The position numbers and the translations under genes were made by a program. DNA of 64,000 bases, taken from the NCBI GenBank assembly GCA_002099625.1, contig GCA_002099625.1_4857.1; one strand, written 5' to 3'. A model generated the notes under the pieces. It worked only from the letters and a program-made list of their open reading frames with translations. It made no database searches and was not told where the DNA came from. Shown piece after piece: positions 19,061 through 43,245 of this stretch. Every line of letters begins with the position of its first letter. The first letter of the stretch is position 1. This DNA comes from Escherichia coli (GTDB taxonomy: Bacteria > Pseudomonadota > Gammaproteobacteria > Enterobacterales > Enterobacteriaceae).

Positions 19061-19070
19061 CTGTTACTCC

Positions 19071-20513
19071 TTAGAAGCCGTTCAACTCACCGTTCGCGGT
19101 TGCTAAATCTGTTTTAAGTGGAGGTTTTGCCTGAGTAGGCGGTAGTGGACGCGGTGCGTCGACGTGTGGTTCAAGTACAACCATCGGCCTAACTGTACCT
19201 ACGCTGTTCGACACTGTCGATAACGGCAGCGCAGTATCGACGTTTGGTTCACCCACCACAATCGGGCTGATAGGTTCTTCCACCTGTTCCGCAGTTGTTG
19301 CTAGAGGTCTCGGCGCATCTGTTGTCGCAACCACGACTGCAAGAGGGCGAATGCTATCAGGTTGTGGTGATGGTACATTAGGAATAACCCTAACGCGCCA
19401 CACAACATCCCCTTCCACATCAGCTAAAGGTAAGACGATGTCGTCCTTATTGATTTCCTCTAAAACAGGCCACCAGTAAGTGGTATCTGTAAGGGTTACC
19501 CATTCAACTGAGCCACCGCGCATATTGCAACGTTGTACTTTAACAGGGTTACCCCCGGTTAACAGTTGTTGCGTGAAGAAGACGGTGGTTCTGGTTAACG
19601 TGGTGTCATTTGCCCAGTCGCCGCCCGTAGAACCGTCACCGAGTTGTGAAATAAGCCACAACGGTGTGGCCTTTGATAAATCAGGGCTAACCGGAACGGA
19701 GACGCGGTAATAATGCGTCTTGTTATTCTCAGTTTTCGTGACAATCAAAGCCTGGTCAACAGGTTCGATACCGTCTGGATACGGACCAGCGTCACCTGTA
19801 CCGAAAATGGCACCCGCTTGATAAAGGGCCGTCCAGGTTGCTGTTAACGTTCCGGTAGTCGGTAGATAAACAATCTTACCATCCTTGAAAAATTTCAACC
19901 ATTCGAAAGTCATTTTCGTTGGGGCAACATCAGGACGAATTAGGTTGTTTAGTTCAGCAAAGGTAAATAACTCTTGCTGAGAAACGTGGCCGAAGTATCC
20001 GTTTGTGCTGTCCCCTGCCAACAAATATTTATTGCCTGGCCCAGAATCTGGATAGTAGCCCACGGCTTCATTCAAATAATCGACCGGGATATAGCCGCGA
20101 TAGCATACGCTATTATACACGGTTAAATTAATACGTGTTGGCGTTGCCAGCGATTTGATAGGCGCGTCTACCGACTGTACACTGCTATCAGATAACCAAA
20201 CACCGTATAAATCGCGTAGAGCTGGGAGAAGATCCCGCACGGTCTTGGCCGTTTGTGGTACGTAGATGCGCGGAGCTATTTTAAATAGATCTGATAATGT
20301 TAAACGGTCGTAATAAACCGTGCACTCCCCAGAGAAACCTTTACCGGGTTTTCCTACCAACGTAATTACCGTGTTACGACCATTCTTAGTGGTCTCGGCA
20401 GGAATACCCCTCACCCCAATCGAATCAGCGCTGATTCTTCCTGCGAGTTCAGGGTTATCCCTTACGACTTGCTGGCAGAGTAATTCCAGTTCGGGTGCGC
20501 TATACAATCCCAT
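19071..20513 (-). CDS. fibre cassette 3, gene a (480-aa family; N-module, Pro-rich C-terminal repeats, C-terminal NGELNGF)
   Basis: 480 aa; N-terminus MGLYSAPELELLCQQVVRDNP...GRNTVITL...TVYYDRLTLSDLF; C-terminal repeats VDAPRPL; ends KTDLATANGELNGF. Confidence 0.65.
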   Translation of the reverse strand: MGLYSAPELELLCQQVVRDNPELAGRISADSIGVRGIPAETTKNGRNTVITLVGKPGKGFSGECTVYYDRLTLSDLFKIAPRIYVPQTAKTVRDLLPALRDLYGVWLSDSSVQSVDAPIKSLATPTRINLTVYNSVCYRGYIPVDYLNEAVGYYPDSGPGNKYLLAGDSTNGYFGHVSQQELFTFAELNNLIRPDVAPTKMTFEWLKFFKDGKIVYLPTTGTLTATWTALYQAGAIFGTGDAGPYPDGIEPVDQALIVTKTENNKTHYYRVSVPVSPDLSKATPLWLISQLGDGSTGGDWANDTTLTRTTVFFTQQLLTGGNPVKVQRCNMRGGSVEWVTLTDTTYWWPVLEEINKDDIVLPLADVEGDVVWRVRVIPNVPSPQPDSIRPLAVVVATTDAPRPLATTAEQVEEPISPIVVGEPNVDTALPLSTVSNSVGTVRPMVVLEPHVDAPRPLPPTQAKPPLKTDLATANGELNGF

Positions 20514-20524
20514 GAAGTCTCCTG

Positions 20525-21424
20525 TTAAGGCAGAACGAGTTCAAGTACCGCAATGGAGCGTATTGTAGTGGTACCGTAGTTACTCCACGACGGCGACTCA
20601 GGGTAAGGTGGACGGTTGTACCACTGACTGGACGTGTTATTCATAGCCGCAAAGAATGCAGATTGTTGGGCAGTAACCGAATCGATTGGACCGACCGGAA
20701 GGTCGTCAAAGCGCGGAAACTGCCCACTGTAGTTGTACAGGCGCGCGAAGGTGTTAAACCACTCACCGTCGAGATACAACTCAGTGTTACCGCTTCCAAC
20801 GTAAGACGTCCAGTATTTGTAGTCGAACAAATACGGCAAGCGCACCACGTATTCGTAACCGTTCTTCGCCACCGTGCGGCGTTGGTTACGTGCAGTAGCC
20901 CAGCCCGGTACATATCCATTGCCATCCTGGCCGTACATCATCCCCTGGTTATAAATGAACTGCGGGCTAGCGTTTATTATCGAGTTATCGGACATAAACA
21001 GAATACGGTTTTTGTAAATGAATTTATGCCAGGCACCAACGGCGGAACTGAACATATTCACCACGAGGCCGTTCAGTTCCGTGTTAGTGAATAACTCTGC
21101 CGGCGTTACTGTTCCAAAGTATCCAGCGTGCCAGTCGCCGTATAACAGCTTCTGGGGGCCAGGCCCGGTGTCTAAAAAGAACCCTTGGGCGGTAGGGGTG
21201 TTGAAGACACGCTCACCGTCTTTAACCGCAGCTATCCAATAACGGTAAGTGGTGTTGTTTTCCACAGCGTTGTCTTCGTACGATGTAGCGTCACCCGGAA
21301 GGGTTGCCAGAGGCGTTCCCGGTGCATTAACATCAATGGTGGCGTTGCCAGGCGTCTTGCGATAGATTTCGATGTTATCGAGCGCCTGTGGCTTCCGTTG
21401 TGCAAAGTTTAATGTAATAGGCAT
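20525..21424 (-). CDS. fibre cassette 2, gene c (300-aa family)
   Basis: ORF 20525-21460 (apparently TTG start) trimmed to ATG 21424 preceded by GAGGA; start abuts the stop of the upstream gene. Confidence 0.65.
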   Translation of the reverse strand: MPITLNFAQRKPQALDNIEIYRKTPGNATIDVNAPGTPLATLPGDATSYEDNAVENNTTYRYWIAAVKDGERVFNTPTAQGFFLDTGPGPQKLLYGDWHAGYFGTVTPAELFTNTELNGLVVNMFSSAVGAWHKFIYKNRILFMSDNSIINASPQFIYNQGMMYGQDGNGYVPGWATARNQRRTVAKNGYEYVVRLPYLFDYKYWTSYVGSGNTELYLDGEWFNTFARLYNYSGQFPRFDDLPVGPIDSVTAQQSAFFAAMNNTSSQWYNRPPYPESPSWSNYGTTTIRSIAVLELVLP

Positions 21425-21426
21425 GA

Positions 21427-22416
21427 TTAATCCTCGATAAGCTCGATTACTGGAATCCAAATACCGCCCACGGTCGCACCAGGGACATGTTGTATACGCT
21501 GGAGGTTATCCACGGTATCAGTGGAATCCGCCGCCGCCCATCCGCGCGTCAGCCCCAACTTACTGTCTGGGTCAAACTCCTGACAATGCGCCCCACGGCC
21601 TGCCACCAGCGATCCGTTTCCGAATATGCTGGAGTTCGACCACTTTATCAGGGACATCACTTTTTTCTTTTCTGGGAACCAGCTACTTATCCCATAGATG
21701 AGTCGGTTGTATTCGCTATCGGCAGTATACGGTGACGCGTCATGGAGTTTACCGTTCCACTGTGCGTCGAGTGTCATGACCGGGCTTTCACTGTCGAGCG
21801 TTAACCCGCGCAGCAGGCGCATCCGATAGCGGTCACCCAACCACGTAAACTCCCCAGCCTGGTCAACGTCAGGTAAATCACCATGACCGCCTTCCGGACC
21901 AGGTCCCGCCACACCGTACAGCAAACCCGCGTTATAAATCGCATCACGGCTATACAGCGTGTTGCCGTTCACACGAAGACCACTAAACAGATACAGAATT
22001 TTACCGTCTAGCTGGAACTTCATCAAGCCCGGCTTAACAGTTGGGTCGTATCCAGAAAGGGCCACAAACCCTGGCGGATAATCACCCGCGCTAGGTAATT
22101 CACCGTACGCCACGTACCCGTAATACGCAAAGCGGTCATCACCGTACAGTGGAGCCACGATGCCGATACCGCGACGGTTCTGAATCAGAATTGATTTCTG
22201 CGGACTGAACAGTGTCCGACTTCCCACTGTCACGGTGGTCATGTAGTAATACGTTGTCCCCAGTATCGCTGTTCGGTCAGTATACTCAGTTTCCCCGTTA
22301 GTGAACGTTGCCAGGGGTTCAGGTAATGCCGTACGCACCAGAGGTTTGGTGTCGCGGTACAGCTTCACGGTCGAAGCCCCAGGGTTATTGTTCGTCCAAC
22401 GAATTGTAAAAGCCAT
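21427..22416 (-). CDS. fibre cassette 2, gene b (330-aa family)
   Basis: 329 aa; MAFTIRWTNNNPGAS...ATFTNGETEY. Confidence 0.65.
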   Translation of the reverse strand: MAFTIRWTNNNPGASTVKLYRDTKPLVRTALPEPLATFTNGETEYTDRTAILGTTYYYMTTVTVGSRTLFSPQKSILIQNRRGIGIVAPLYGDDRFAYYGYVAYGELPSAGDYPPGFVALSGYDPTVKPGLMKFQLDGKILYLFSGLRVNGNTLYSRDAIYNAGLLYGVAGPGPEGGHGDLPDVDQAGEFTWLGDRYRMRLLRGLTLDSESPVMTLDAQWNGKLHDASPYTADSEYNRLIYGISSWFPEKKKVMSLIKWSNSSIFGNGSLVAGRGAHCQEFDPDSKLGLTRGWAAADSTDTVDNLQRIQHVPGATVGGIWIPVIELIED

Positions 22417-22428
22417 TGTCGTTACCTC

Positions 22429-23925
22429 TTATTGGAATCCATCCAACTCACCGTTAGTATCGCCCAGAGTAATTTTTGAAGGTTGGGCGATTTGGTCAGT
22501 CGTGAGAATAATCGGTCTAATCTTAACGCTAGCCATACCTGTTACCGCGACGGAATATGCACGTTCATCATTGTCCGTCGTGGCAAGCAGAGGACGTGGT
22601 GAGTCTGATGACGCTTCCCGCACCCAGGCAGGGGTGGCAGTTTCGGTGTTGTCGGTGTTGAAAACTAACGGACGTGGATTCGCTGCGGCGGAGGTTTCCG
22701 TAATAGGCACCACACGAAGCGATTCATTTTGGTCGATGTCCGTCAGAGTAACCACGGACGGTGCCCATGTTAGTTCTGCACCTTCGTCAATCAACGGCAC
22801 AGGTTCATTGGCAATATCAAACATCTCCAGGATTGGCCAAAAGCCAGAAGAGGTGTAGATGTAGGTGTTTGAACGATAGCTCCCACTGATAGACTGGTAA
22901 TACGCTTGGTCGGCACCGAACTGGTGTCGTAACCACACGTAATCCAGGAAGTTAGCATCAGTCGTGCTAAGAGTTCCCCATTCCCCATATACGTTCACCG
23001 ACCCCAATTTGCTGGTCAGTGACAGGATAGAGGTGATTGACGGCGGTTTACTCCAATCAGGCGCGGCGGCGTTCTCGGTGTAATACGGGATAGACATTCT
23101 GAAATAATGCGTTCCTTCATCATCCCGTTTTACCATGTATTTCAACTGTTCAACATCGACAGGTGTGTAAGTCGACTTCGGGCGAGGTCCTGCGTCTCCG
23201 GAATCAAATATTGCACCCTTGTTGTACAGGTCTGCCCAGGTAACGTTGCAAATCGCACGGGTCGGAACAAACACTACCGCCCCATTCAGAAAGAATTTGA
23301 GCCACTTGATAGCGTAGCGGTTAGGCCAGTTGGTGCCGTTATAAAGGGCATACACCATTTCATCAGATGTGAATAACTCTTCCGCGCTTACCAGCCCAAA
23401 GAATCCGTATAACTCATTACCAGCCATTAATCCTTTTGGCCCAGGACCCGACTTCGGATACATCGCAATCGGTTCGTAAACATAGGTCATCTTGCATGAC
23501 CCGGTATAGCACAAGGAGTTAGCGTGCGCCGTCAGAGTTACAGTTTCCGGCGTAGCGTATTTCATTAATGCAACGTTTGGACTGGTGATATCACTCGCGG
23601 TTAAGTTCAACCCATTCAATTCATTGAACGCCGGTAACGCTTCCGCATGGGTTTGTGCGCTACGTGGAATACTCACCATATTCGGGCCAGACTTAAATAG
23701 ACTGGCCAGATTCAACCGGTCGTAATATACCGTTATTTCCCCAGCAAATCCTTTACCGGGTTTTCCTACCAACGTAATCTGTGTGTTTCGTCCGTTAACG
23801 TTTCTCGCAACAGGAACACCCCTGACCCCAACGGAGTCAGCGGTGATTTTTCCTGCTAAACTGGGATTGTCACGCACAATTTGTTGGCAGAGCAGTTCCA
23901 TTGAAGGTTCTGTATACAACCCCAT
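22429..23925 (-). CDS. fibre cassette 2, gene a (480-aa family)
   Basis: 498 aa; N-module MGLYTEPSMELLCQQIVRDNP...; C-terminus ITLGDTNGELDGFQ. Confidence 0.65.
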   Translation of the reverse strand: MGLYTEPSMELLCQQIVRDNPSLAGKITADSVGVRGVPVARNVNGRNTQITLVGKPGKGFAGEITVYYDRLNLASLFKSGPNMVSIPRSAQTHAEALPAFNELNGLNLTASDITSPNVALMKYATPETVTLTAHANSLCYTGSCKMTYVYEPIAMYPKSGPGPKGLMAGNELYGFFGLVSAEELFTSDEMVYALYNGTNWPNRYAIKWLKFFLNGAVVFVPTRAICNVTWADLYNKGAIFDSGDAGPRPKSTYTPVDVEQLKYMVKRDDEGTHYFRMSIPYYTENAAAPDWSKPPSITSILSLTSKLGSVNVYGEWGTLSTTDANFLDYVWLRHQFGADQAYYQSISGSYRSNTYIYTSSGFWPILEMFDIANEPVPLIDEGAELTWAPSVVTLTDIDQNESLRVVPITETSAAANPRPLVFNTDNTETATPAWVREASSDSPRPLLATTDNDERAYSVAVTGMASVKIRPIILTTDQIAQPSKITLGDTNGELDGFQ

Positions 23926-23938
23926 GGCTTTTACTCCG

Positions 23939-24862
23939 TTACGGTAAGACTAATTCGAAAGCAAAGAAAATTGTTACAGCAACACCCACTCCTGATGAGT
24001 TGGTAATCCCCGCCGGGGCATAACCGTACGCATAAGCGAAAAGGTTGCTGTTCCATAAAGGAGCTAGCACGGCTGCACCTGTTTCGTTAGGCTGGGCAGT
24101 TGAACCTTGCGGCGGTATTGAATCGATGGCACCAAGACCAATAGGCGGGAACTGTGCACCGACAGGATACAAACGGCCCATTGTGTTTCGCCATTCGCCG
24201 TTGTTGTAATCCTGTCCTGAGAGAGCCGCGTCGTACGGGACTGCGTAAGGTAATCGGATACGGTACGTACGACCATCCTTCGTGACCTTACAATCTTGTT
24301 TAGTCGCCGTGGCTCCCTGCGGGACTATGATCCCGTTATCATCGGTCCCGTACATCATCCCGTACTGATACGCCATCTGTACCGAGTTGGTTTTCGAATG
24401 CATCGTCGCTGGGAAGAAGACAATTCTCCCACGGAAAATAAACTTGTGCCATTCCTGAGGGTCGTAGGTAAACATGTTTCCCTGCTGCGCAGTTAACATG
24501 AGTTTTAACTCGGCAGTATTAAAGAACTCTGTATTCGGTACTGTACCGAAATAACCTGAAGCCCAGTCACCTCGCAAAATAGTTTGCGGTCCCGGTCCAG
24601 TGTCTGGATAGAACCCTTGCGTAATCGGATTGCCGATAAGTCGTTCACTGTCTTTTACAGCAGCTACCCAATAACGATAAGTTGTATTCTTCGTCAGAGT
24701 ATCAATATCGTCTACGAACTCTACCGCGTTGCCTGATAAAGTTGCGTGGGGCGTGCCTGGATTGTAAACGTCGATTGTTGCGTTCCAACCTTCCTTGCGG
24801 TAGATTTCAATCGCGGTAAGACCTTTGCTGGCTTGGGACGGCCAGCTTAACCGTATAGTCAT
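23939..24862 (-). CDS. fibre cassette 1, gene c (300-aa family)
   Basis: 307 aa; ATG start; family motifs as above. Confidence 0.65.
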   Translation of the reverse strand: MTIRLSWPSQASKGLTAIEIYRKEGWNATIDVYNPGTPHATLSGNAVEFVDDIDTLTKNTTYRYWVAAVKDSERLIGNPITQGFYPDTGPGPQTILRGDWASGYFGTVPNTEFFNTAELKLMLTAQQGNMFTYDPQEWHKFIFRGRIVFFPATMHSKTNSVQMAYQYGMMYGTDDNGIIVPQGATATKQDCKVTKDGRTYRIRLPYAVPYDAALSGQDYNNGEWRNTMGRLYPVGAQFPPIGLGAIDSIPPQGSTAQPNETGAAVLAPLWNSNLFAYAYGYAPAGITNSSGVGVAVTIFFAFELVLP

Positions 24863-24871
24863 GACTGCCCC

Positions 24872-25870
24872 TTACTCGACCAGTTCAAAGATAGGGTAGT
24901 AACGCCCTTTCGTGGTGGGTGATAAATAGTTTATACGCTGAATCGCTGATACGGGTGTTCCACCGGCATTGTTAAAGATACCACGATGGAGCACACGGTC
25001 TTCCGCGGTGTCGTGTTCCATACAGAGAACTCCGGCACCGAAATACGTTGCCGAGGTTCCCAAATTAGCCTGTCCCAGATAAGTATAACCGATTGTTGCC
25101 CAGTTAGCCCAACGTTGTTTCTTCGGCACCTCGTTAACCATCGTGTAAAGTAAATCGTTATACTCGCACGGGTTGGTTAGAGAAGCGATTTCATCGTGGG
25201 TTTTCCCATTGTAGTCAGCCACGAAAGGATACGCAGGAGACTCGCTAGACGTCGTCAGGCCGCGAGGAAGACGCATAATGTACGTATCCCCTTTGTGGAC
25301 TATCTTAGCGTCTTGTGGAGTGGCCGGTAGCGTTCCATGGCCGTTCTCTGGGCCAGCATCGCCTGTACCATAGACTAAACCAGCTTGATAGAGGGAAGCC
25401 CAGTCCACAGGCGTATTCGGGAACTGCGACGTATTAGATAGCATGTAATAGATCTTCCCGTTTCGGGTAAATTTATACAACGCCACACGATCGGTTAATA
25501 GATTAGGGAACATCGCCAAAAATGCAGGTGGCATTTGCGACGGAAGCCATTGTTCGTCGTAAGGAACCGCACCCATAAACCCTAAACGGTCGTTACCGTT
25601 TAGAATAGTCATTGGGCCAATCCCACGCTTTATCTCAATGGTGTATTTCTGGCTAGACGATGCCACTGTTTTACCGTTGGCGGTTACCGTCAGAAGGTAA
25701 TAATAGGTTGCGCCTGGTGCGGCGGTGGTATCACGCCATTCTGTCTCGCCATTTGAGAGCGTTGCAATCGGTTCAGGCAAAGCGCTCGGTGTGATATCTT
25801 TAACGTCACGGTAGATTTTTACTACCGTAGAGATTACGTTTGGATTTTTCCAACGCAAAGTAAAAGACAT
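24872..25870 (-). CDS. fibre cassette 1, gene b (330-aa family)
   Basis: 332 aa; MSFTLRWKNPNV...ATLSNGETEW. Confidence 0.65.
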   Translation of the reverse strand: MSFTLRWKNPNVISTVVKIYRDVKDITPSALPEPIATLSNGETEWRDTTAAPGATYYYLLTVTANGKTVASSSQKYTIEIKRGIGPMTILNGNDRLGFMGAVPYDEQWLPSQMPPAFLAMFPNLLTDRVALYKFTRNGKIYYMLSNTSQFPNTPVDWASLYQAGLVYGTGDAGPENGHGTLPATPQDAKIVHKGDTYIMRLPRGLTTSSESPAYPFVADYNGKTHDEIASLTNPCEYNDLLYTMVNEVPKKQRWANWATIGYTYLGQANLGTSATYFGAGVLCMEHDTAEDRVLHRGIFNNAGGTPVSAIQRINYLSPTTKGRYYPIFELVE

Positions 25871-25881
25871 GGATGATACCT

Positions 25882-27294
25882 CTACTTAAAGCCGTTCAGT
25901 TCACCGTTAAGAGACGTTAACGATGTCTTGTCGGGTGGCGTATACATTTCAGCGGTAGCCGCAATGGGTTGGAAGTCGACTGTCTTCGGCAGCATTAAAG
26001 CAGGCGGATGCAGTGCGAAACTGTTTTCTGAAGTAACAACTACCGGTTCGAAATCGGTAGTATCTGGATTACCGAGCACCAACGGCTTGAGACTAAACGT
26101 GTTTTCTGCGGACACGCTGCACGGTTGGAGACTGTAATCTACCGCACCATGGATATCTTCTAAACCCAAGGTAACTGTGGACTTATCCACCAACTCTAGC
26201 ACCGGGAACCAGTAGTAGTTGCCTGCGCTCGATGATTTTCCTAAGTTTGTCCAACTGGCTCCAGACAACGTCGCCATGCGATGATTGGCGACGTTGGTGT
26301 TCAGTGTATCTTTCAATAAACAGAACAGCGTCCAGTAACTGTTAATCGGTTTGTCCCACGTTCCATTATACAGAAAGTTGAACATCTCAAACTCACTACC
26401 TGCTAACTCAGCGGCAGTTGGGGTGCCGCTGACGTATGGGTCTTTCCCGGCACTAGGTAGACGAACACGGAAGTAAAACCTTTTGTTGTCTGCGCCTGTA
26501 AAGCTAATGATGCGTCCCTGGTTAACGGGCGTCGCCGCAGGGTATTTACCATTATCGTCTGTTCCGTAAACGAGTCCGTTTGTATATAACGTATTCCAGG
26601 AGATGGAGCTAGCGACAGGACTAATCGGGAGGTAAATAACCCTACCCTGGTAAAAGAACTTGTACCAACCTTCGGCACCAGAATGTACCGGTGGTAACGC
26701 ACCGGCCGATATAGTGGCATTAAGAAGTTGAGAGTGTGTAAACAACTCTGCAATTGTGGTTGTTCCGAAATAACCCGCGATAGTGTTACCTTGCAGCAAC
26801 GTTTTAGGGCCAGGTCCAGAATCGGGGTAAATTGCACCACTCGGGACGGTATAACGTATCGTTAAGCTGCCTGTAAACGCAGGGCAATTACCTGAGATAT
26901 TTAATTTCAACGTCTGCGGCGAAGCGCTCGGTTTAGGTAAACTTGCGTCAGGTGACTGCAAATCAGAAGCAACTAATGTAAGCCCCAATGCGTCGTTTAT
27001 TGCAGGTAGCGCGTCTCGTACCGTTAAGACTGTATCTTTGATAGCCACAGTCGGCACAAAATTAAATAAAGTGGCCAGGTTAATCCGGTCGTAGTACACG
27101 GTAACATTACCTTGTACACCTGTCCCTGGATACCCGGTGAAAACAGCTTTGGTGTTACGTTGGTTTAACGTAACTGAAGTTGGGCCGCTGGTTAAAGCAG
27201 CGATAGCCGGCGTCAGCTTAACAACTAAATCAGGATTATCCCGATTGACTTGGTCGTATACAAGCAGTGCCGACTCCTTCGAGTAAAATAGCAT
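25882..27294 (-). CDS. fibre cassette 1, gene a (480-aa family)
   Basis: 470 aa; N-module MLFYSKESALLVYDQVNRDNP...; C-terminus DKTSLTSLNGELNGFK. Confidence 0.65.
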   Translation of the reverse strand: MLFYSKESALLVYDQVNRDNPDLVVKLTPAIAALTSGPTSVTLNQRNTKAVFTGYPGTGVQGNVTVYYDRINLATLFNFVPTVAIKDTVLTVRDALPAINDALGLTLVASDLQSPDASLPKPSASPQTLKLNISGNCPAFTGSLTIRYTVPSGAIYPDSGPGPKTLLQGNTIAGYFGTTTIAELFTHSQLLNATISAGALPPVHSGAEGWYKFFYQGRVIYLPISPVASSISWNTLYTNGLVYGTDDNGKYPAATPVNQGRIISFTGADNKRFYFRVRLPSAGKDPYVSGTPTAAELAGSEFEMFNFLYNGTWDKPINSYWTLFCLLKDTLNTNVANHRMATLSGASWTNLGKSSSAGNYYWFPVLELVDKSTVTLGLEDIHGAVDYSLQPCSVSAENTFSLKPLVLGNPDTTDFEPVVVTSENSFALHPPALMLPKTVDFQPIAATAEMYTPPDKTSLTSLNGELNGFK

Positions 27295-27341
27295 AGGGAC
27301 TCCGCATCGCCAAAAGATGGGGCTCCGAAGAGCCCCTACAC

Positions 27342-28169
27342 TTAGCTGTTATAGTGGTAGTACGCCACGCCTTTCACGCCTTCCTCATCGATACCCGTTT
27401 GGATAACCACGCGGTCGTACGATTTGTTAGCGAACTGTGCGGTGGAAGTCGGCACATCCTGAACGGTGTTACTGTTCAGTGGCCCCGCGTAGTTCGGAAT
27501 ACCCAGGTCATCCAACACCTTACGCAAACCAGCCCACTGCGGTAGGCCAGAAGCATCTACTGTCAGTAGGTTTTTATACGCGGTAAAGTCAATACCGTAC
27601 GTCAACAAATCAATACACTTCTTACCGAGAGACGGTGAAATAGGCTCTTGAATCGCATTCAAGACATCTGATTTCACCGAAGTGTCTAGTACCGGTAAAC
27701 CACGGTTATAACGCAACGTCGCAGAACCGATATAAGCCGGAGATGTCGATAGCGCTGCAATGGTCTGTGTATTGGTGTAATTTGGGGTATTGGCACCCGC
27801 CAGTGAGTAGTTTTGGATATCGATTGCGGAGAAGTTTACTCCGTAGGTATCCAAGAGCACCGAAAAGGCTGAGTGGAGGTTGGGAGCGTCAAACGTGACG
27901 AACTGCGCCTGGACGGAAGGACCCCACGGCAATAACCGCGCTAAGTTCACACGGTCGTAGTAAACGGTGATTGCGTCTCGAAATCCGGAACCCTGAATAC
28001 CGCGCAAGCGTGCCGACGTATTGCGGTTGTTGGAAGCTGCATTAACGGGAACCTGTGTCACTTTCTCCACGTAGCAGTTTGCCGGCGACGCTTTAATAGG
28101 TAGGTTTGGGTTATCCCGGTTAATGAGGTCAAAGACCAACTCGTTTGACGGCTTAGCATAGTTGATCAT
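27342..28169 (-). CDS. approx 280-aa fibre-family paralogue 1 of 7
   Basis: ORF 27342-28172 (apparently TTG) trimmed to the adjacent ATG (28169), giving MINYAKPSNELVFDLINRDNP; module signature NRNT...VYYDRVNL. Confidence 0.6.
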   Translation of the reverse strand: MINYAKPSNELVFDLINRDNPNLPIKASPANCYVEKVTQVPVNAASNNRNTSARLRGIQGSGFRDAITVYYDRVNLARLLPWGPSVQAQFVTFDAPNLHSAFSVLLDTYGVNFSAIDIQNYSLAGANTPNYTNTQTIAALSTSPAYIGSATLRYNRGLPVLDTSVKSDVLNAIQEPISPSLGKKCIDLLTYGIDFTAYKNLLTVDASGLPQWAGLRKVLDDLGIPNYAGPLNSNTVQDVPTSTAQFANKSYDRVVIQTGIDEEGVKGVAYYHYNS

Positions 28170-28172
28170 CAA

Positions 28173-29060
28173 TTATACCTCGCTTGGATCGTCCAGATCG
28201 TTGAACTGGAGATACAACGTTCCGACGATGGTGGTACAAGTAACAGGCAGTTTCAACACCAGCGCATACTTGTACTTCGCGTTTGTCGGCATTGCAACAG
28301 GGTCATTCAAACCAACGCTGACAACCTCCGCGCCCGCCAAACCGTAGGAAGCGGAGGTGGTCGCTACCCATGCAGTACCCGTGATATCTTTCAGCAGGTT
28401 AACCATATCCGTTAACGGCTGTCCGGACAGAATACCCGGCACGTATGCCAGCAACTCATCACGGTATTTGGTGAAGTTGTACGGGTAGGAATAAACCTCT
28501 GCAATGACCGCAGTAACGGTTTCGGAACCCATCTGACCGTTCGGGTATTTCAGACCGGTCAGGACGTTAGTGGTGACTGCAGAGACTAACGACTCATCGC
28601 CTTTCACGACTTTAAATGTCGCCTGTCCAACCCAACCGATAGACTCAGGATGTGCAACAACACGCACAGTTCCTTCGGTCTTATCACCGTTCCATTCGAT
28701 ATCTGCGTCCTGCAGGTCAGCTTCTTCCAGAACAAAACCGTAACGTTGGTTCAGTCCAGGAATGGCCGCATACAAGGTTTCGTTGGATGGGCCGATCGCC
28801 AACGTGTCACCAATCAGCACTAACAAGTCTTCGATTTTCATGCGGTTGTAGAAGACATTTTTCTTACCCGACCAGGTAGAGCCCGTTACCCCATCTGCCG
28901 TAATTTTAATTTGCGTGTTACGGTTAGTCAGCGTTTCCTTCTCCGTACCACGGATGTCCTTTGGCGAGGACCAGATGATGTCAGTCATCTTAACAGCAAG
29001 CGAGTTCTGTGCGTTCACTGCTGCCAACAGGACGTCTTTAGAAGGTTGATAAATAGCCAT
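28173..29060 (-). CDS. approx 280-aa fibre-family paralogue 2 of 7
   Basis: 295 aa, ATG start; MAIYQPSKDVLLAAVNAQN...NRNTQIKI...FYNRMKIEDLL. Confidence 0.6.
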   Translation of the reverse strand: MAIYQPSKDVLLAAVNAQNSLAVKMTDIIWSSPKDIRGTEKETLTNRNTQIKITADGVTGSTWSGKKNVFYNRMKIEDLLVLIGDTLAIGPSNETLYAAIPGLNQRYGFVLEEADLQDADIEWNGDKTEGTVRVVAHPESIGWVGQATFKVVKGDESLVSAVTTNVLTGLKYPNGQMGSETVTAVIAEVYSYPYNFTKYRDELLAYVPGILSGQPLTDMVNLLKDITGTAWVATTSASYGLAGAEVVSVGLNDPVAMPTNAKYKYALVLKLPVTCTTIVGTLYLQFNDLDDPSEV

Positions 29061-29070
29061 TCGCTAATTC

Positions 29071-29910
29071 CTAGTTGTTGTAGTGCAACATACACTCGCC
29101 GATTACTTTCGGGTCGTTCTGAATGCCGGTAATCAGCAATACGTTATCGTACGCTTTATTGGCGGTCGCCAACTCACTCGTTTTGTAGCGGGTAATTGTG
29201 CAGTTCGTCGGATCAAACGACGGTACCCCACGTGCGACCAATGTGGCCATCAGATTGGACGTGTAACCCAAATCAAAGTTACTTCCTACGTCCATTCGTC
29301 CGTTCTTAAACGAGGCCATAACCTGCACTTCATCAGTAAAGTCTTCCCCGTACGTCAAGAAGCCCATGTATTTCTTACCAGTGCTTGCTGCTGCAGGGTG
29401 GTTCAAAGCCGACAAGATGTCGTTTACCACGAGGTCTTCGAGACTATTCTTACCCCGGATAGACATAAAGGTGATGCTGCCAGTGTATTGGATACAGCTA
29501 GCGTTAATACGCATCGTGTTGTTTACGTTCAGATAAACGTATTGTTCTGGGATATCGTCTGCAACCAGGTTTAATCCATAACGACCGTTCAGGTTCTGCG
29601 CAAACGCAGTACGTTTCGACTCCACGTTCAACCAACCGTAGGCATTCGGTGCAGTTACCTGAGGTGTCATGTTCTTAAATAAGTCGTTCAGCGACAAGCG
29701 CTTATAACGGAACGTCTGAGGACCGATATAGCCACGACCTTGACGACCACGAATGATAATCTCAGTATTGGCACCGCTTGCTGTCGGTGTGATTGCTTTC
29801 GGCGTACCGATGATAGCATTGTCTAAACCCATCGGTAGAACAGCATCCGGGTTTTCGGCATTAATCGCATCGTACAGATATTGTCGCTGAGACAGACTAT
29901 ATAAAGCCAT
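29071..29910 (-). CDS. approx 280-aa fibre-family paralogue 3 of 7
   Basis: ORF 29071-29928 trimmed to ATG 29910 preceded by GAGGAGG; MALYSLSQRQYLYDAINAENP. Confidence 0.6.
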   Translation of the reverse strand: MALYSLSQRQYLYDAINAENPDAVLPMGLDNAIIGTPKAITPTASGANTEIIIRGRQGRGYIGPQTFRYKRLSLNDLFKNMTPQVTAPNAYGWLNVESKRTAFAQNLNGRYGLNLVADDIPEQYVYLNVNNTMRINASCIQYTGSITFMSIRGKNSLEDLVVNDILSALNHPAAASTGKKYMGFLTYGEDFTDEVQVMASFKNGRMDVGSNFDLGYTSNLMATLVARGVPSFDPTNCTITRYKTSELATANKAYDNVLLITGIQNDPKVIGECMLHYNN

Positions 29911-29924
29911 AATAGCCTCCTCGG

Positions 29925-29967
29925 CCAAAAAAGAAAGGAGTAGCCAGGAGGAGGATTTCCTCCTCCC
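29925..29967 (-). terminator. rho-independent terminator inside the paralogue array
   Basis: GGAGGAGGA / TCCTCCTCC inverted repeat followed on the minus strand by CTCCTTTCTTTTTTGG. Confidence 0.5.
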
Positions 29968-29979
29968 AGCGAGGCCTAA

Positions 29980-30891
29980 TTAGGCATTAAAGTGCAGGTA
30001 CATGACGCCCTGGAAGTTGGTGCACAGAGTGTCATCCAGCTGCAGCAGCAGAACCTGGTTGTAAGCAGTGTTTGCACCTTCAACCGGTTTCTTAGGATCG
30101 TCGCCTGAAGCGGTGCCGTCGTCAGCAGTAGAACCAACGTACAACACGTTAGCACCTTTCAGGTTATAATCCGCAGGCTCATCAGATGCAACCCACAGTT
30201 CCGGCACAACTTTATTCAGCTCAACCGGGAATGCAGAGTCGCCAGCGATAACACCTTTCGTCTGTACTTTCAGGAATGCTGCGATTGCTGTGCAGTCTAC
30301 ACCGTAAGAGTAGATGTAACCCTGACCCTTCGCTTCGCTTGCACCATCTGGGTAAACCAGGCCGTCGAGCTTGGTTTGTGTTACCACCAGATTCAGACGT
30401 TCACCAACTTGAGGCTTAGCACCGATTTTAACCGGGATGCTGCCCAGATAAGCATAGCAGTCTTCTTTGAAGGTAATGACGTGGTCAACCGGTGCTGGGT
30501 CCGGATCGTTCGGGTTAGTCAGCGGCGGGTTGGTATTTTCCGGAATAGCCGCCGGAACGATATCGTCTTCGGTCAGCTTCAATCCGTATTGGGTGTTCAG
30601 GGTCGTCAGCAGGTCGGTGGTGGTTTTCGGCAGTTTAACGTCGAGGTATGCTGTTACATTACGGAACAGCGCACTGCCTTCCAGGCGATTATAAGTCACG
30701 TCCTGAGTACCGATGTACCCGGAGTTCTTTTTCGCAGTCAGGGTCATGCTGGTATTGCGATCGGCACCTCCATCGACAATAGGGGTCGGTGTGCCGAGCG
30801 TTATTTTAGAAAGTTCCAGTTCTGCGTCTGGGTTTTTCTCATTAATAAAATCCAGAACCAGCTGATCGGACGTTTTGTTTAAAGGTTTCAT
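29980..30891 (-). CDS. approx 280-aa fibre-family paralogue 4 of 7
   Basis: 303 aa, ATG start; MKPLNKTSDQLVLDFINEKNP...RNTSMTL. Confidence 0.6.
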   Translation of the reverse strand: MKPLNKTSDQLVLDFINEKNPDAELELSKITLGTPTPIVDGGADRNTSMTLTAKKNSGYIGTQDVTYNRLEGSALFRNVTAYLDVKLPKTTTDLLTTLNTQYGLKLTEDDIVPAAIPENTNPPLTNPNDPDPAPVDHVITFKEDCYAYLGSIPVKIGAKPQVGERLNLVVTQTKLDGLVYPDGASEAKGQGYIYSYGVDCTAIAAFLKVQTKGVIAGDSAFPVELNKVVPELWVASDEPADYNLKGANVLYVGSTADDGTASGDDPKKPVEGANTAYNQVLLLQLDDTLCTNFQGVMYLHFNA

Positions 30892-30912
30892 TCTTACTTC
30901 CTTTACTCAGGA

Positions 30913-31758
30913 TTAATCAGGGTCGTTGTAGTGCAAATACAAACGCCCGCCAAAATTCAGACAGTACAACGACAGCTCCACAATCAGCACGTTGTCGACT
31001 GCTGGGTTGGTTGGTAATTCCGCTTTGTTACGCCCGTTATAGACGACGACAGCTTCACGAAGGTTAAAGTCGATTGGGTTACGGTACGTTGTCCAGTTAT
31101 CACCGGTGACCGTTTTGAGAATCTGCGCCAGACGTTCTGCGGTTATCGCAGCACCTAGTCGTTGAAATTCCTCCGCGAAATTATCAAAGCGCCAGGGATA
31201 CGAATAAACTGCACCTTGACCGACCTTGATGTTGAAATACGGATACTCGTAAGGTGTCACTGTTAAGGGTTCGAAGTTTGCAGGAAGCAACGCATCGCCT
31301 GGTAACAGCTGTACCTGTTGTTGCCCTATCCAACCTAAAGAAGTGGGCGTGGCAATCAGATCCACACGCCATGTCTTCCTGTCGATTTCGGTATTCACCA
31401 CATCTGCGGGTTTAAGGCTGAGACCGTAATACTGGTTAATTAACCCGACCACGTCATGCATCTGGTAAACAGCGTCGAGACGTGCAGGAACACGTAGAGG
31501 TTGAATCCCGTCTGGGTCGGTAAACATGTCTGCGAAGTCAACACGATCGTAATACACGGTAGTGGCACCGATAGCATTAGCGGTGGCCAAAGCCTGAATG
31601 CGCACCATCGCGTTATGACCATTGGCTTTTGCCAGGTCTTCGTCAGACGTCGGTATCGCAGGGACACCGAAAACCACATCTTCGACTTTTAAATCGAGAT
31701 TGTTTTCGACGTTAACCTCCGCGATAATAATCTTTTCAGCAGTGGCTAAAAGTGGCAT
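30913..31758 (-). CDS. approx 280-aa fibre-family paralogue 5 of 7
   Basis: 281 aa, ATG start; ends LHYNDPD like family consensus (LH(Y/F)N). Confidence 0.6.
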   Translation of the reverse strand: MPLLATAEKIIIAEVNVENNLDLKVEDVVFGVPAIPTSDEDLAKANGHNAMVRIQALATANAIGATTVYYDRVDFADMFTDPDGIQPLRVPARLDAVYQMHDVVGLINQYYGLSLKPADVVNTEIDRKTWRVDLIATPTSLGWIGQQQVQLLPGDALLPANFEPLTVTPYEYPYFNIKVGQGAVYSYPWRFDNFAEEFQRLGAAITAERLAQILKTVTGDNWTTYRNPIDFNLREAVVVYNGRNKAELPTNPAVDNVLIVELSLYCLNFGGRLYLHYNDPD

Positions 31759-31768
31759 GTCAAAATCC

Positions 31769-32611
31769 TTATATCGGGAGATAGTGAAGGATGAGATTAC
31801 CGGCGTAGTTGCTGTCCGCAGCTAGCTTGATAATCGCCACACGCTGATAATCGGGGTTGTAACTATCGTTCGGTGTGACTGAAGTTATCCCCATATATCG
31901 TGCACCTTGAAGCGCAATTTGTTCAGGTTGCGCAGTCGCCCCCGTCACATATGCAAACTTTAATGGCACCACTTCGTTAAGCAATTCAACATCCGCCGCG
32001 GTGATTGCGCGGTTGTAAGCCCAATCGGTAGTGAACTGTTTTTGCAGTTCAGTCCAATCGTAACCATACGCCACATACTCAGCCTGTGGTTTACTAGCAA
32101 CCACGAACGGCGCGATGATTGCGCTGAGGTCAACATCCGTCACCACATCCGCCAAGTTCGGGAAGAACTTCGCAAAGCGTAAACGGAAACCACCTTGCCA
32201 GGCCAAGCAACCAGGCTTAATAGTCACATCGATTAACCAGCTTTCTCCCAAATCTTTTACTGACTGGTCAACGATATCGTCGGCAACTAAAGACAAGCCG
32301 TATTTCGCATTCAGAAACGGCAACAACTCAGAGAGTTTATTTACCGGGTCGGCAACGACTACCGGTATTACGTTCCTGAACAGAATTTCCATTTCGATAC
32401 GGTCGTATTCGAGCGTAACGTTGCCTTTGTAGCCCTTGCCGTTCAACCCGTATAAGAGCACACGCGTATTCCGGTCAGCGCCAGGCGTTTGGACAGACTC
32501 AGGGAAGCCAGTTGCAACCTGCTCCCATGTGAGTGGATTGGCCGTTAATCCGTTCTGTCGGTTAATAGCATCTAACAACATCTCTTTCGAGGGCTTATCG
32601 TAAATAGACAC
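31769..32611 (-). CDS. approx 280-aa fibre-family paralogue 6 of 7
   Basis: 280 aa; apparent GTG start preceded by GGAGGG; MSIYDKPSKEMLLDAINRQN...RNTRVLL...LEYDRIEM. Confidence 0.6.
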   Translation of the reverse strand: MSIYDKPSKEMLLDAINRQNGLTANPLTWEQVATGFPESVQTPGADRNTRVLLYGLNGKGYKGNVTLEYDRIEMEILFRNVIPVVVADPVNKLSELLPFLNAKYGLSLVADDIVDQSVKDLGESWLIDVTIKPGCLAWQGGFRLRFAKFFPNLADVVTDVDLSAIIAPFVVASKPQAEYVAYGYDWTELQKQFTTDWAYNRAITAADVELLNEVVPLKFAYVTGATAQPEQIALQGARYMGITSVTPNDSYNPDYQRVAIIKLAADSNYAGNLILHYLPI

Positions 32612-32621
32612 CTATACCCTC

Positions 32622-33419
32622 CTAGTTGTTAAAGTGTAGGTTGAGGGTGCCCTGGAAGTTCGTACATTTATCGGTCAGTTGCACTGACACGACTTTCGCG
32701 AACGCCGTATTTGCTCCCGGCAAGTCTGCAGGTACGCCGTCGAATACGACAGTGGCACCACGCAGGTTATACGGGGATGGGGTATCTTCAGCTACCCAAA
32801 TCTCAGGAACACATTTGTTGAGTTCGATTGCCAACGCCGTGTCATCTACCTCGATACCGACCGCTAAGAGGCTCAGGAAACGAGAGATGTGGCTACAATC
32901 GATGTCACGCGAATAGATATACGCCTGACCCAACTGGATGTCCTGGTGATCCGGGTACAGAAGACCGCTCAACTCTGTATTGGTTACTACTTCTGCCAGA
33001 GGTGTAGCAGGTTTCAGCTCGATGACCGCTTGACTTCGCCACTCGTGGGAAGTTTCAACAGCAACGACTGTGTGCGTCTGTCCATCAATGGGGTTATCTT
33101 CGATATCCTCAGGTAAGATAGACAGATTAAAACGCTCGTTAATCGCCGCGAGTAAGTCGTGCGTGGTTTGCACGTCCTCGTCTCCAAAGGCAACATCGCC
33201 TTTAAGGTAGTCCTCTAATGGACGACGATGGTAGTCCACAATCACTTGCGTACCTTCATCACCGCGCATCTTCGAGGTAAGGACTACCTCCGAATCACGA
33301 CCGTCTACTGACACAACCTCCGGCAGTCCGATATCAACATCGTCAAAGGTAAGCGGTGGGCTTATCTTATTCTCTTCGTTGATGAGTTTTAGCAGATTCT
33401 GTTTTGAAGTAAAAGACAT
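32622..33419 (-). CDS. approx 280-aa fibre-family paralogue 7 of 7
   Basis: 265 aa, ATG start; MSFTSKQNLLKLINEEN; ends LHFNN. Confidence 0.6.
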   Translation of the reverse strand: MSFTSKQNLLKLINEENKISPPLTFDDVDIGLPEVVSVDGRDSEVVLTSKMRGDEGTQVIVDYHRRPLEDYLKGDVAFGDEDVQTTHDLLAAINERFNLSILPEDIEDNPIDGQTHTVVAVETSHEWRSQAVIELKPATPLAEVVTNTELSGLLYPDHQDIQLGQAYIYSRDIDCSHISRFLSLLAVGIEVDDTALAIELNKCVPEIWVAEDTPSPYNLRGATVVFDGVPADLPGANTAFAKVVSVQLTDKCTNFQGTLNLHFNN

Positions 33420-33519: not shown

Positions 33520-33566
33520 AACAAAAAAAGAAAAGGAAACAAAAAAGAAGGGGAGCCGAAGCTCCC
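33520..33566 (-). terminator. rho-independent terminator after gene 33573-34004
   Basis: GGGAGC-CGAA-GCTCCC hairpin directly after the stop codon, followed on the minus strand by a long T-rich tract. Confidence 0.5.
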
Positions 33567-42771: not shown

Positions 42772-43245
42772 CTAGTATCCTGTTCCGCAAATGGCCCCTT
42801 TCCAGGTTGTACCGCCATCCGTAGATGACAAAGACAACACATCCTCGGCGTCCAGCTTGTACGATAACGGAGGTTCTGCACCGTTAGGCCATTTAACCGA
42901 AGTCGGCCAGGTGATTTTGTTTGCACCGGTACCCTGACGTAGCGTCAGTAATAATTCATATCGCGTACCCGGAACCGGGTCGGTAATAGGTGTGATAGAA
43001 AGCGCAGTGGTGGGGTCACCTAAACGGATGATGAAGTCGTCCGCAACATTGGGATCTATTTCAACGATACCGTCAGCACCGGATAAGTTTTGGATAGGGT
43101 TTGCGTCTGCCCCACCACCGCCGATTTCACTGAGGGGAAGTTTGTACTCCTTTTCATCAACGCTGATAAGCGCTACTGCGCTCGACTTATCGCCGTTGTA
43201 AGAATCGAGTTCATGCAAACGTTTCTTTTTGACTACAGTTGCCAT
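42772..43245 (-). CDS. small structural-type hypothetical protein
   Basis: 157-aa ORF tightly packed between the two large genes. Confidence 0.5.
   Translation of the reverse strand: MATVVKKKRLHELDSYNGDKSSAVALISVDEKEYKLPLSEIGGGGADANPIQNLSGADGIVEIDPNVADDFIIRLGDPTTALSITPITDPVPGTRYELLLTLRQGTGANKITWPTSVKWPNGAEPPLSYKLDAEDVLSLSSTDGGTTWKGAICGTGY

What the first reader, a model, noticed from the sequence alone, without database searches (positions are those of the whole stretch)
27342..33419. Seven-gene tandem array of about 280-aa paralogues sharing the fibre N-module
Seven consecutive minus-strand genes (265-303 aa) start with the same module (x-x-Y-x-K-P-S-x-x-L-L-x-x-I-N-x-x-N ... R-N-T ... (V/F)-Y-Y-(D/N)-R-(L/V/I/M)) and mostly end L-H-(Y/F)-N-(N/S/A), with divergent middles. 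One internal terminator (29925-29967) splits the array. Such a run of short anchor-plus-variable-head proteins is unusual even for phages with elaborate fibres and may be a library of alternative distal tips or decoration proteins.
Basis: seen in the sequence. Interest (0 to 1): 0.6.

Follow-up and report, generated by a model that had tools for sequence, protein, structure and literature searches.

The report
Known jumbo-phage DUF7941 virion paralogue array
The seven genes are real full-length paralogues, but they are the already described gp138-gp144 "paralog family B" (Pfam DUF7941) virion proteins of SPN3US-type giant Salmonella phages. They are most likely chain-forming fibre subunits, not a library of alternative fibre tips, and where they attach on the particle is still disputed.

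Summary
Seven adjacent minus-strand genes (27342-33419) are paralogues, and each matches Pfam DUF7941 over its whole length (E 1e-68 to 1e-88).

The window is a Seoulvirus jumbo phage, 98.7-99.1% identical to SPN3US and its relatives. The genes are SPN3US gp138-gp144, part of the 17-gene "paralog family B" published in 2016-17. All seven were detected in virions by mass spectrometry.

Evidence against a "library of tips":
- Each copy has a 1:1 positional orthologue in phiEaH2 and CR5.
- dN/dS is 0.04-0.08 in every domain.
- All seven copies are incorporated together.

The fibre link is still real. The same N-module is fused to a Gp38 adhesin domain (gp155), to a foreign tail-fibre tip (43245-45194), and to lectin domains in metagenomic relatives.

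One conflict is unresolved. In SPN3US these proteins partition with tailless heads exactly like the capsid protein, yet the Goslar/PhiKZ work anchors the family on the baseplate.

Verdict: already known, moderate-to-low interest.

The parts
32622..33419 (-). gp138 homologue, 265 aa, full-length DUF7941, subfamily A
   Evidence: ORF. Pfam PF25613, E 3.9e-68. Mapped to SPN3US_0138. Clade with gp141 at bootstrap 100.
31769..32611 (-). gp139 homologue, 280 aa from a GTG start, full-length DUF7941, subfamily D
   Evidence: The GTG start restores the family N-terminus and matches phiEaH2 VSIYDKPS. Clade D has bootstrap 92.
30913..31758 (-). gp140 homologue, 281 aa, full-length DUF7941, subfamily C
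   Evidence: Groups with gp143.
29980..30891 (-). gp141 homologue, 303 aa, full-length DUF7941, subfamily A. It is the most abundant of the seven in SPN3US virions.
   Evidence: AF2 model has pLDDT 88.6: N-domain 1-157, linker about 158-187, C-domain 188-303. The only fold match is PhiKZ gp127. Spectral count per kDa is 9.39.
29925..29967 (-). Terminator-like hairpin plus T-tract between gp141 and gp142
   Evidence: Sequence. Fold energy -38.5 kcal/mol, z -3.6. Conserved in SPAsTU, phiEaH2 and CR5. CR5 has two extra paralogues immediately downstream of its equivalent hairpin.
29071..29910 (-). gp142 homologue, 279 aa from ATG 29910, full-length DUF7941, subfamily D
28173..29060 (-). gp143 homologue, 295 aa, full-length DUF7941, subfamily C. 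Second most abundant of the seven.
27342..28169 (-). gp144 homologue, 275 aa from ATG 28169, full-length DUF7941, subfamily D
27311..27336 (-). Terminator-like hairpin closing the array after gp144
   Evidence: GGGGCTCTTCGGAGCCCC followed by a T-rich tail; the hairpin folds as predicted.
33541..33566 (-). Terminator-like hairpin upstream of gp138, after gp137
   Evidence: GGGAGCTTCGGCTCCC followed by CTTCTTTTTT.
17156..27294 (-). Three gene triplets, gp145-147, gp148-150 and gp151-153. The first gene of each triplet has the DUF7941 N-domain, then a 'GPGP...ELV' domain, then a C-terminal NGEL(D/N)GF tail. Genes 2 and 3 have a short N-terminal domain plus the same GPGP domain.
   Evidence: HMM census, Pfam, alignment, C-terminal motif.
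15658..16977 (-). gp154 homologue, 439 aa. [quoted passage not shown]
   Evidence: Pfam match to residues 1-169. PHROG 1037 matches residues 1-287 and phrog_6409 matches 308-436. BLASTP against gp144 finds only the N-domain.
13466..15643 (-). gp155 homologue, 725 aa. Two DUF7941 N-domains plus a Gp38 tail-fibre adhesin domain.
   Evidence: Pfam GP38 PF05268, 66 bits against a cut-off of 25, residues 373-553. phrog_2056 'tail fiber protein; host specificity'.
10047..10574 (-). gp160 homologue, 175 aa. DUF7941 N-domain only, ending in NGELDGFV. As abundant as gp141 in SPN3US virions.
43245..45194 (-). 649-aa gene (GTG start after GGAGGA). The distal part of a tail-fibre protein is fused to the gp122-type DUF7941 N-domain. 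The fibre-tip DNA is absent from all related phage records.

Best explanation
**What the genes are.** They are gp138-gp144 of an SPN3US-type (Seoulvirus, Chimalliviridae) jumbo phage. They are seven full-length members of the DUF7941 family, which is the same thing as SPN3US 'paralog family B'.

**Architecture.** Each protein has a globular N-domain, a roughly 30-residue linker carrying a conserved L-x-G-L-x-Y-P motif, and a globular C-domain ending in LH(Y/F)N.

**Most likely mechanism (inferred from the Goslar/PhiKZ work plus the domain census here).** The linker and C-domain of one subunit dock onto the N-domain of the next. The proteins therefore join head-to-tail into flexible chains on the outside of the virion. 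In this picture:
- The seven full-length copies are the chain links. They fall into three old subfamilies arranged A-D-C | A-D-C | D.
- Proteins that carry the same N-domain fused to other modules are incorporated through that N-domain and display host-recognition domains. These are gp145, gp148, gp151, gp154, gp155 (Gp38 adhesin domain) and the fibre-tip fusion at 43245-45194.

**Shown.** Identity, paralogy, architecture, virion incorporation, strong conservation, and fusion partners.

**Inferred.** Chain formation by these particular proteins, and their role in host binding.

**Unresolved.** The attachment point. SPN3US proteomics places them on the head or neck. PhiKZ cryo-EM places gp127 on the outer baseplate.
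For: **Identity.**
- 98.7% DNA identity to SPN3US over all 6078 bases, with the same gene order.
- Full-length Pfam DUF7941 matches.

**Structure.**
- The AF2 model of gp141 (pLDDT 88.6) has two domains and a lower-confidence linker.
- gp127 terminates a gp139 band in the outer baseplate.

**Chain formation.**
- Purified Goslar gp22 forms filaments, and AF3 predicts head-to-tail docking of linker plus C-domain onto the next N-domain.
- Among 3,506 relatives found in the search of 1.84 billion cluster representatives (50% identity), several are single polypeptides with three tandem N-domain-plus-linker units: P0057, P0060, P0061, P0063 and P0067. These are natural covalent versions of the proposed chain.

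**Host-recognition cargo.**
- gp155 carries a Gp38 adhesin domain.
- The 43245-45194 gene carries a tail-fibre tip 58% identical to an Stx-prophage tail protein.
- P0192 carries six concanavalin-like Laminin_G_3 domains, and P0187 carries a Gp38 domain.

**Non-redundant structural role.**
- 1:1 positional orthologues in phiEaH2 and CR5, with seven orthogroups each at bootstrap 100.
- dN/dS 0.04-0.08 in every region.
- All seven are present in virions at reproducibly different levels.
Against: - No oligomer of these seven proteins was predicted or observed here, because the tools fold single chains only.
- In SPN3US, the head/wild-type normalised spectral ratios of gp138-144 are 1.22-1.56. That matches the major capsid protein (1.39) and portal (1.40). 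Tail and baseplate proteins fall to 0.01-0.07, and the same was seen in an independent tailless mutant. These data contradict a purely baseplate-anchored fibre and leave an internal or capsid-bound location open.
- No fibres on SPN3US heads are mentioned in the passages I read of the 30 A cryo-EM study.
- The Goslar model is a preprint, and its authors call the fibre-cloud picture speculative.
Confidence: 0.6

Rival explanations
1. Internal head proteins. They would be packaged with the DNA and perhaps ejected into the host, as Ali et al. 2017 tentatively labelled gp141, gp143 and gp160 ('Head ejection?').
For: - Quantitative retention in DNA-filled tailless particles of two different mutants.
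- High copy number of gp141 and gp160.
- SPN3US heads contain a large unassigned protein mass.
Against: - The one structurally located family member is outside the particle, on the baseplate.
- The same N-module is fused to a Gp38 adhesin domain, tail-fibre tips, lectin domains and (in Goslar) glycoside hydrolases, all of which act on cell surfaces.
- DUF7941-like modules also occur in secreted Spiroplasma proteins.
- There is no PF12699 match.
Confidence: 0.12
2. Static capsid-surface decoration or cement proteins, bound at fixed sites on the T=27 shell.
For: - Head partitioning identical to the capsid protein.
- The SPN3US hexamers carry an unassigned central protrusion.
- gp141 and gp160 have spectral abundance close to that of the ~264-copy tail sheath, which is near the 260 hexamers. 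This is numerology only.
Against: - High-resolution Goslar and PhiKZ capsid maps assign decoration and latch proteins, and none is a DUF7941 protein.
- A flexible linker and filament formation by gp22 do not fit a rigid cement.
- Five of the seven are at low abundance, close to the per-kDa value of the 12-copy portal. That does not fit shell-wide decoration.
Confidence: 0.13
3. A library of interchangeable distal fibre tips, with one or a few copies used per particle or per host.
For: - Tandem paralogues sharing an N-terminal module with fibre-like neighbours.
- Copy number differs between genera: 7 in SPN3US and phiEaH2, 9 in CR5.
Against: - All seven are incorporated together.
- The C-domains are homologous to one another and under strong purifying selection.
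- There are strict 1:1 orthologues across genera.
- None of the seven matches a tail-fibre, lectin or adhesin family.
- The array is 99% identical among many isolates, whereas the real host-range-type variation lies elsewhere, at 43245-45194.
Confidence: 0.03

Closest known systems
SPN3US paralog family B (gp138-gp154, gp160, gp83; Thomas 2016, Ali 2017, Thomas 2023)
   Same: These are the same genes. DNA identity is 98.7%, with identical order and lengths. All seven are virion proteins assigned to the head fraction.
   Different: Nothing substantive differs in the seven genes. This isolate differs elsewhere in the family, carrying a fibre-tip fusion on the gp122 homologue.
Goslar DUF7941 proteins gp22, gp23, gp31, gp33 and gp34 (Basu et al. 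2026 preprint)
   Same: Same Pfam family and same N-domain-linker-C-domain plan, detected by the profile built from the seven (E 1e-29 to 1e-44). The short, abundant N-domain-only partner (gp23) parallels gp160. Both phages have fusions to host-recognition domains.
   Different: Identity is only 23-33%. Goslar has 10 members that are mostly scattered, and SPN3US-type phages have about 20, including this ordered seven-gene array. Goslar proposes baseplate anchorage, but SPN3US data place the proteins with tailless heads. The preprint does not cite the SPN3US work.
PhiKZ gp127, with gp126 (PDB 9XQD, outer peripheral baseplate)
   Different: There is one gp127 per star lobe, so six per virion, at a defined baseplate site. 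The SPN3US paralogues are present at tens to hundreds of copies and are retained on tailless heads.
T-even Gp38 adhesin and classical tail-fibre tips
   Same: A Gp38-like glycine-rich domain is present in the neighbouring family member gp155.
   Different: None of the seven array genes has it. They lack any fibre, adhesin or lectin signature.

Membership tests
Pfam DUF7941 (PF25613) | Sequence match above the curated gathering score | tested here: met
   All seven score 230-295 bits against a cut-off of 27, and six cover profile positions 1-274 or 1-276 of 276; gp138 covers 5-276.
Pfam DUF7941 (PF25613) | N-terminal globular domain, flexible linker, C-terminal globular domain | tested here: met
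   AF2 model of gp141 has pLDDT 88.6. The linker blocks drop to about 70, and pTM is 0.56, as expected for two loosely coupled domains.
Pfam DUF7941 (PF25613) | Fold shared with the solved member PhiKZ gp127 | tested here: met
Pfam DUF7941 (PF25613) | Head-to-tail self-association into filaments | not testable with these tools
   Only single-chain prediction is available. Indirect support comes from natural three-module tandem proteins and the Goslar gp22 filaments.
Pfam DUF7941 (PF25613) | Anchorage at the peripheral baseplate, as proposed for all chimalliviruses | not testable with these tools
   Published SPN3US proteomics argues against it for these proteins. Their head/wild-type ratios are 1.22-1.56, against 0.01-0.07 for tail proteins.
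SPN3US paralog family B | Orthology and position: gp138-gp144 of the 17-gene run | tested here: met
   98.7% DNA identity, same order and same gene lengths.
Tail-fibre distal tip / receptor-binding protein | Match to a fibre, adhesin or lectin family or fold in the C-terminal part | tested here: not met
   There are no such Pfam or PHROG hits for the array proteins; Pfam covered all seven and PHROGs only gp141. No PDB fold neighbour other than gp127 was found.
Tail-fibre distal tip / receptor-binding protein | Fast-evolving or exchangeable C-terminal domain | tested here: not met
   C-domain dN/dS is 0.012-0.089 against SPAsTU (gp142 C-domain not computable). The array is 99% identical among many isolates.
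Inner-body / ejection proteins (PF12699 type) | PF12699 fold, or a propeptide cleaved by the prohead protease | tested here: not met
   No PF12699 hit. The processed SPN3US head proteins listed are gp45, 47, 50, 53, 54, 75, 81 and 245, and none belongs to family B.

The most novel reading that the evidence does not exclude
In SPN3US-type phages the DUF7941 proteins would not form a random baseplate 'cloud'. They would form defined hetero-oligomeric fibres attached to the head or neck and carrying adhesins such as the Gp38-domain protein gp155.

Two observations suggest this:
- The conserved A-D-C | A-D-C | D gene order could reflect a fixed subunit order.
- The five minor paralogues have spectral abundance per kDa (2.1-5.0) close to that of the 12-copy portal (3.9). 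That fits roughly 6-12 copies each, about one per fibre.

If correct, this would be a head-borne, adhesin-bearing fibre system in a contractile-tailed phage. It would also reconcile the SPN3US proteomics with the Goslar and PhiKZ structures.
Probability: 0.25. Interest if true: 0.6.

Novelty: already known. Interest (0 to 1): 0.32.

Why it matters
The array itself is textbook SPN3US biology. It was published in 2016-17, and all copies have been verified in virions.

What remains open is where the roughly 20 DUF7941 proteins sit and what they do. Two literatures give opposite answers and do not cite each other. SPN3US mutant proteomics says head. Goslar and PhiKZ structural work says baseplate fibres.

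Linking the two is useful for three reasons:
- SPN3US has amber mutants and tailless particles, so the location question is directly testable there.
- The fusion partners found here (Gp38 adhesin domain, swapped fibre tip, lectins) support a host-recognition role, which bears on host-range engineering of jumbo phages.
- The isolate-specific fibre-tip fusion is a concrete candidate host-range determinant.

Tried and rejected
- **AF2 of gp145.** Run with a nine-sequence alignment made only of window paralogues, it gave an unusable model (pLDDT 48). The fold of the 'GPGP...ELV' domain of the triplets therefore remains unknown. A profile of that domain found nothing in the PDB, and the whole proteins that carry it gave no Pfam hit for that region.
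- **Is the NGEL(D/N)GF tail the linker docking motif?** I tested whether the C-terminal tail of gp145, gp148, gp151 and gp160 is the same element as the L-x-G-L-x-Y-P linker motif. A linker-only HMM did not score the tails significantly, so this stays a visual resemblance only.
- **phiEaH2 EPS depolymerase.** The gene directly upstream of the phiEaH2 array has no DUF7941 module. Only adjacency can be claimed.
- **DNA repeats.** The search found only short patches at conserved motifs and no sign of recent duplication or gene conversion.
- **Promoter scan.** The sigma-70 scan is at background level (9 found, 11.2 expected). It is probably irrelevant anyway, because these phages use their own RNA polymerases.
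- **gp154.** BLASTP against gp144 supports only the N-domain. Its status as an eighth full-length copy rests on a PHROG profile alone.
- **Copy numbers.** Estimates from spectral counts differ about five-fold depending on the reference protein, so only orders of magnitude are given.

Full report
**1. The observation**

The ORF listing shows seven consecutive minus-strand ORFs of 265-303 aa that fill 27342-33419 with gaps of 0-21 nt and one gap of 51-69 nt. They align over their whole length. Invariant residues lie in the N-terminal module (N17, N20, Y67, R69 in gp141 numbering), in the middle (L166, P181) and near the C-terminus (N274, G295, then LH(Y/F)N).

- Each copy matches Pfam PF25613 (DUF7941) across positions 1-276 of 276 (5-276 for gp138), at 230-295 bits against a cut-off of 27.
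- BLASTP recovers 17 of 21 pairs at 23-34% identity, and many alignments run end to end.
- The paralogy is therefore real and spans the full length. The 'divergent middles' are diverged but homologous.
- Start codons need small corrections. gp142 starts at ATG 29910, behind GAGGAGG, and gp144 starts at ATG 28169, both as annotated in SPN3US. The GTG start of gp139 at 32611 restores the family N-terminus and matches the phiEaH2 orthologue.

The internal terminator is a 12-bp G+C hairpin (29942-29967) followed by a T-tract. It is conserved after the gp141 orthologue in SPAsTU, phiEaH2 and CR5, with a compensatory change in phiEaH2. Similar hairpins bracket the array at 33551-33566 and 27319-27336.

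**2. What the window is**

The 6 kb region is 99.1% identical to Salmonella phages SPLA5c and the SPFM series, and 98.7% identical to SPN3US. These are 240-kb Seoulvirus jumbo phages.

The genes map one to one onto SPN3US gp138-gp144.
- Thomas et al. [quoted passage not shown]
- Ali et al. 2017 named it paralog family B, with 20 members, and detected all seven proteins in purified virions. Spectral counts per kDa were: gp141 9.39, gp143 3.70, gp144 2.77, gp142 2.11, gp140 1.31, gp139 1.24, gp138 1.20.

The existence of the array and its incorporation into virions are therefore already published.

**3. The family in the window**

A profile built from the seven finds the N-domain alone (about 150 aa) in these genes:
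- gp145, gp148 and gp151, the first genes of three downstream triplets;
- gp154;
- gp155, which has two copies;
- gp160;
- the C-terminal part of a 649-aa gene at 43245-45194.

gp155 adds a Gp38 tail-fibre adhesin domain (Pfam 66 bits against a cut-off of 25; phrog_2056 'host specificity').

The gene at 43245-45194 carries, ahead of its gp122-type N-domain, about 465 aa that match the distal part of tail-fibre PHROGs (E 6e-178). This part is 58% identical to a tail protein of an Stx2k prophage. The corresponding 1.4 kb is absent from all 37 related phage records.

**4. Structure**

An AF2 model of gp141, built with 28 aligned homologues, is confident (pLDDT 88.6). It shows an N-domain (1-157), a lower-confidence linker (about 158-187) and a C-domain (188-303).
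- A sequence profile also finds it at E 3.9e-22, through to the shared C-terminal 'LIHYN'.
- No lectin-like or other known fold appears for the C-domain.
- In PhiKZ, gp127 caps a band of gp139 dimers in the outer peripheral baseplate.

**5. Mechanism proposed in the literature**

Basu et al. (2026 preprint) report the following:
- The Goslar DUF7941 proteins gp22 and gp23 are among the most abundant virion proteins.
- Purified gp22 forms filaments.
- AF3 predicts that the linker and C-domain of one protomer dock on the N-domain of the next.
- Several family members carry carbohydrate-binding, glycoside-hydrolase or LRR domains.

They propose a baseplate-anchored 'fibre cloud' for host recognition.

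My search of 1.84 billion representatives finds 3,506 relatives.
- Some are single polypeptides with three tandem N-domain-plus-linker units.
- One carries six concanavalin-like Laminin_G_3 domains.
- One carries a Gp38 domain.

These are natural covalent versions of the proposed chain and of its cargo.

**6. Evolution of the array**

phiEaH2 (Erskinevirus) has seven copies and CR5 (Derbicusvirus) has nine, in the same place.
- Best hits are strictly positional: gp138 to phiEaH2 copy 1 to CR5_134, and so on.
- Orthologues are 58-80% identical in phiEaH2 and 43-62% in CR5. Paralogues are only 23-34% identical.
- An NJ tree gives seven orthogroups at bootstrap 100 and three deeper clades: A (gp138, gp141), D (gp139, gp142, gp144) and C (gp140, gp143).
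- The order is therefore A-D-C | A-D-C | D in this phage and A-D-C | A-D-C | D-C | D in CR5. This suggests growth by duplication of a three-gene block.
- The two extra CR5 genes sit just after the conserved terminator.
- Against SPAsTU (82% DNA identity), dN/dS is 0.04-0.08 for every gene and is similarly low in the N-domain, linker and C-domain. dS is near saturation, so the values are approximate but clearly far below 1.
- There are no long DNA repeats.

Old, individually conserved copies that are all present in the virion do not fit a library of alternative tips.

**7. The unresolved conflict**

In dual-CsCl-purified tailless particles of SPN3US 255(am107), the normalised head/wild-type PSM ratios are as follows.

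| Protein | Head/wild-type ratio |
|---|---|
| gp138-gp144 | 1.45, 1.49, 1.22, 1.44, 1.40, 1.56, 1.36 |
| Major capsid protein | 1.39 |
| Portal | 1.40 |
| Tail sheath | 0.027 |
| gp124 | 0.053 |
| gp167 | 0.008 |
| gp155 (has the adhesin domain) | 0.89 |
| gp237 (once counted in family B) | 0.06 |

- The independent tailless mutant 64_112(am27) gave the same picture.
- Only gp237 behaves as a tail protein.
- The Goslar preprint does not mention SPN3US or tailless particles.
- For this phage type a purely baseplate-anchored cloud is therefore contradicted by the data. The proteins travel with the head or neck.
- External fusion partners, the external location of gp127, and secreted Spiroplasma proteins with the same module argue that they lie outside the capsid, not inside it.

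**8. Verdict**

It is partly wrong: the seven are not variable heads and not alternatives.
- The feature is already known.
- Its most likely function is as subunits of head-to-tail DUF7941 chains that scaffold host-recognition modules (confidence about 0.6).
- Rivals are internal head proteins and capsid decoration, each at about 0.12-0.13.
- The point worth passing on is that the two literatures disagree on location, and that SPN3US genetics can settle it.

Noticed in passing
window 43245-45194 (-): A 649-aa gene with a GTG start after GGAGGA, just downstream of a terminator hairpin. Residues about 6-467 are the distal part of a tail-fibre protein: PHROGs 13714 and 7032, 58% identical to a tail protein of the Stx2k prophage phiSTEC1575, and 53% identical to a protein of jumbo phage ph0011. 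This is fused to the gp122-type DUF7941 N-domain. The 1.4 kb of fibre-tip DNA is missing from SPN3US and all 37 related records, so it is a likely isolate-specific host-range module.
   Followed up: partly
window 13466-15643 (-): The gp155 homologue has two DUF7941 N-domains and then a Gp38 tail-fibre adhesin domain (Pfam 66 bits against a cut-off of 25). Yet SPN3US proteomics lists gp155 as a head protein, with a head/wild-type ratio of 0.89. It was not counted in paralog family B.
   Followed up: partly
C-termini of the genes at window 25882-27294, 22429-23925, 19071-20513 and 10047-10574: gp145, gp148, gp151 and gp160 all end in K-T-(D/S)-L-x-T-x-N-G-E-L-(D/N)-G-F. The motif is also found in two phiEaH2 orthologues. 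It resembles the L-x-G-L-x-Y-P linker motif of the full-length copies, but a linker HMM does not score it significantly.
   Followed up: partly
window 17156-27294 (-): Three gene triplets (gp145-147, gp148-150, gp151-153) share a domain of about 220 aa ('GPGP...GYFG...ELV') with no Pfam or PDB relative. CR5 has only one triplet and phiEaH2 has three. The AF2 attempt failed (pLDDT 48).
   Followed up: partly
window 27342-33419, with L005 17418-23550 and L006 17481-25464: The array is built from three old subfamilies in a repeating order: A-D-C | A-D-C | D here, and A-D-C | A-D-C | D-C | D in CR5. This suggests duplication of a three-gene block. The two extra CR5 copies lie just after the conserved terminator.
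   Followed up: yes
window 13466-16977 (-): gp154 and gp155 share a C-terminal domain of about 130 aa (phrog_6409). It ends with Y-(S/T)-K-(T/S)-A-P-x-P-W a few residues from the C-terminus. A similar segment occurs in the 1537-aa metagenomic relative P0187.
   Followed up: no
L005 15546-17363 (phiEaH2): An annotated EPS depolymerase sits directly upstream of the phiEaH2 seven-gene array, where this window has small genes. It has no DUF7941 module.
   Followed up: yes
P0144 and P0193 (metagenomic relatives); gp160 residues 27-68: The first ~70 residues of the DUF7941 N-domain resemble a repeat found 8-10 times in very long proteins. One of these is Mollicutes-like, with DUF285 repeats. gp160 gives a weak Spiralin-domain hit (E 0.001). 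A 2026 paper reports DUF7941 in secreted Spiroplasma proteins. The family is therefore not strictly confined to chimalliviruses.
   Followed up: partly
window 10047-13423: The neighbourhood of gp160 looks like that of Goslar gp22-gp24, by eye only. In both, a short N-domain-only DUF7941 gene lies near a gene that is annotated as a peptidoglycan-domain protein in Goslar (gp24) and that appears similar by eye here (12770-13423).
   Followed up: no
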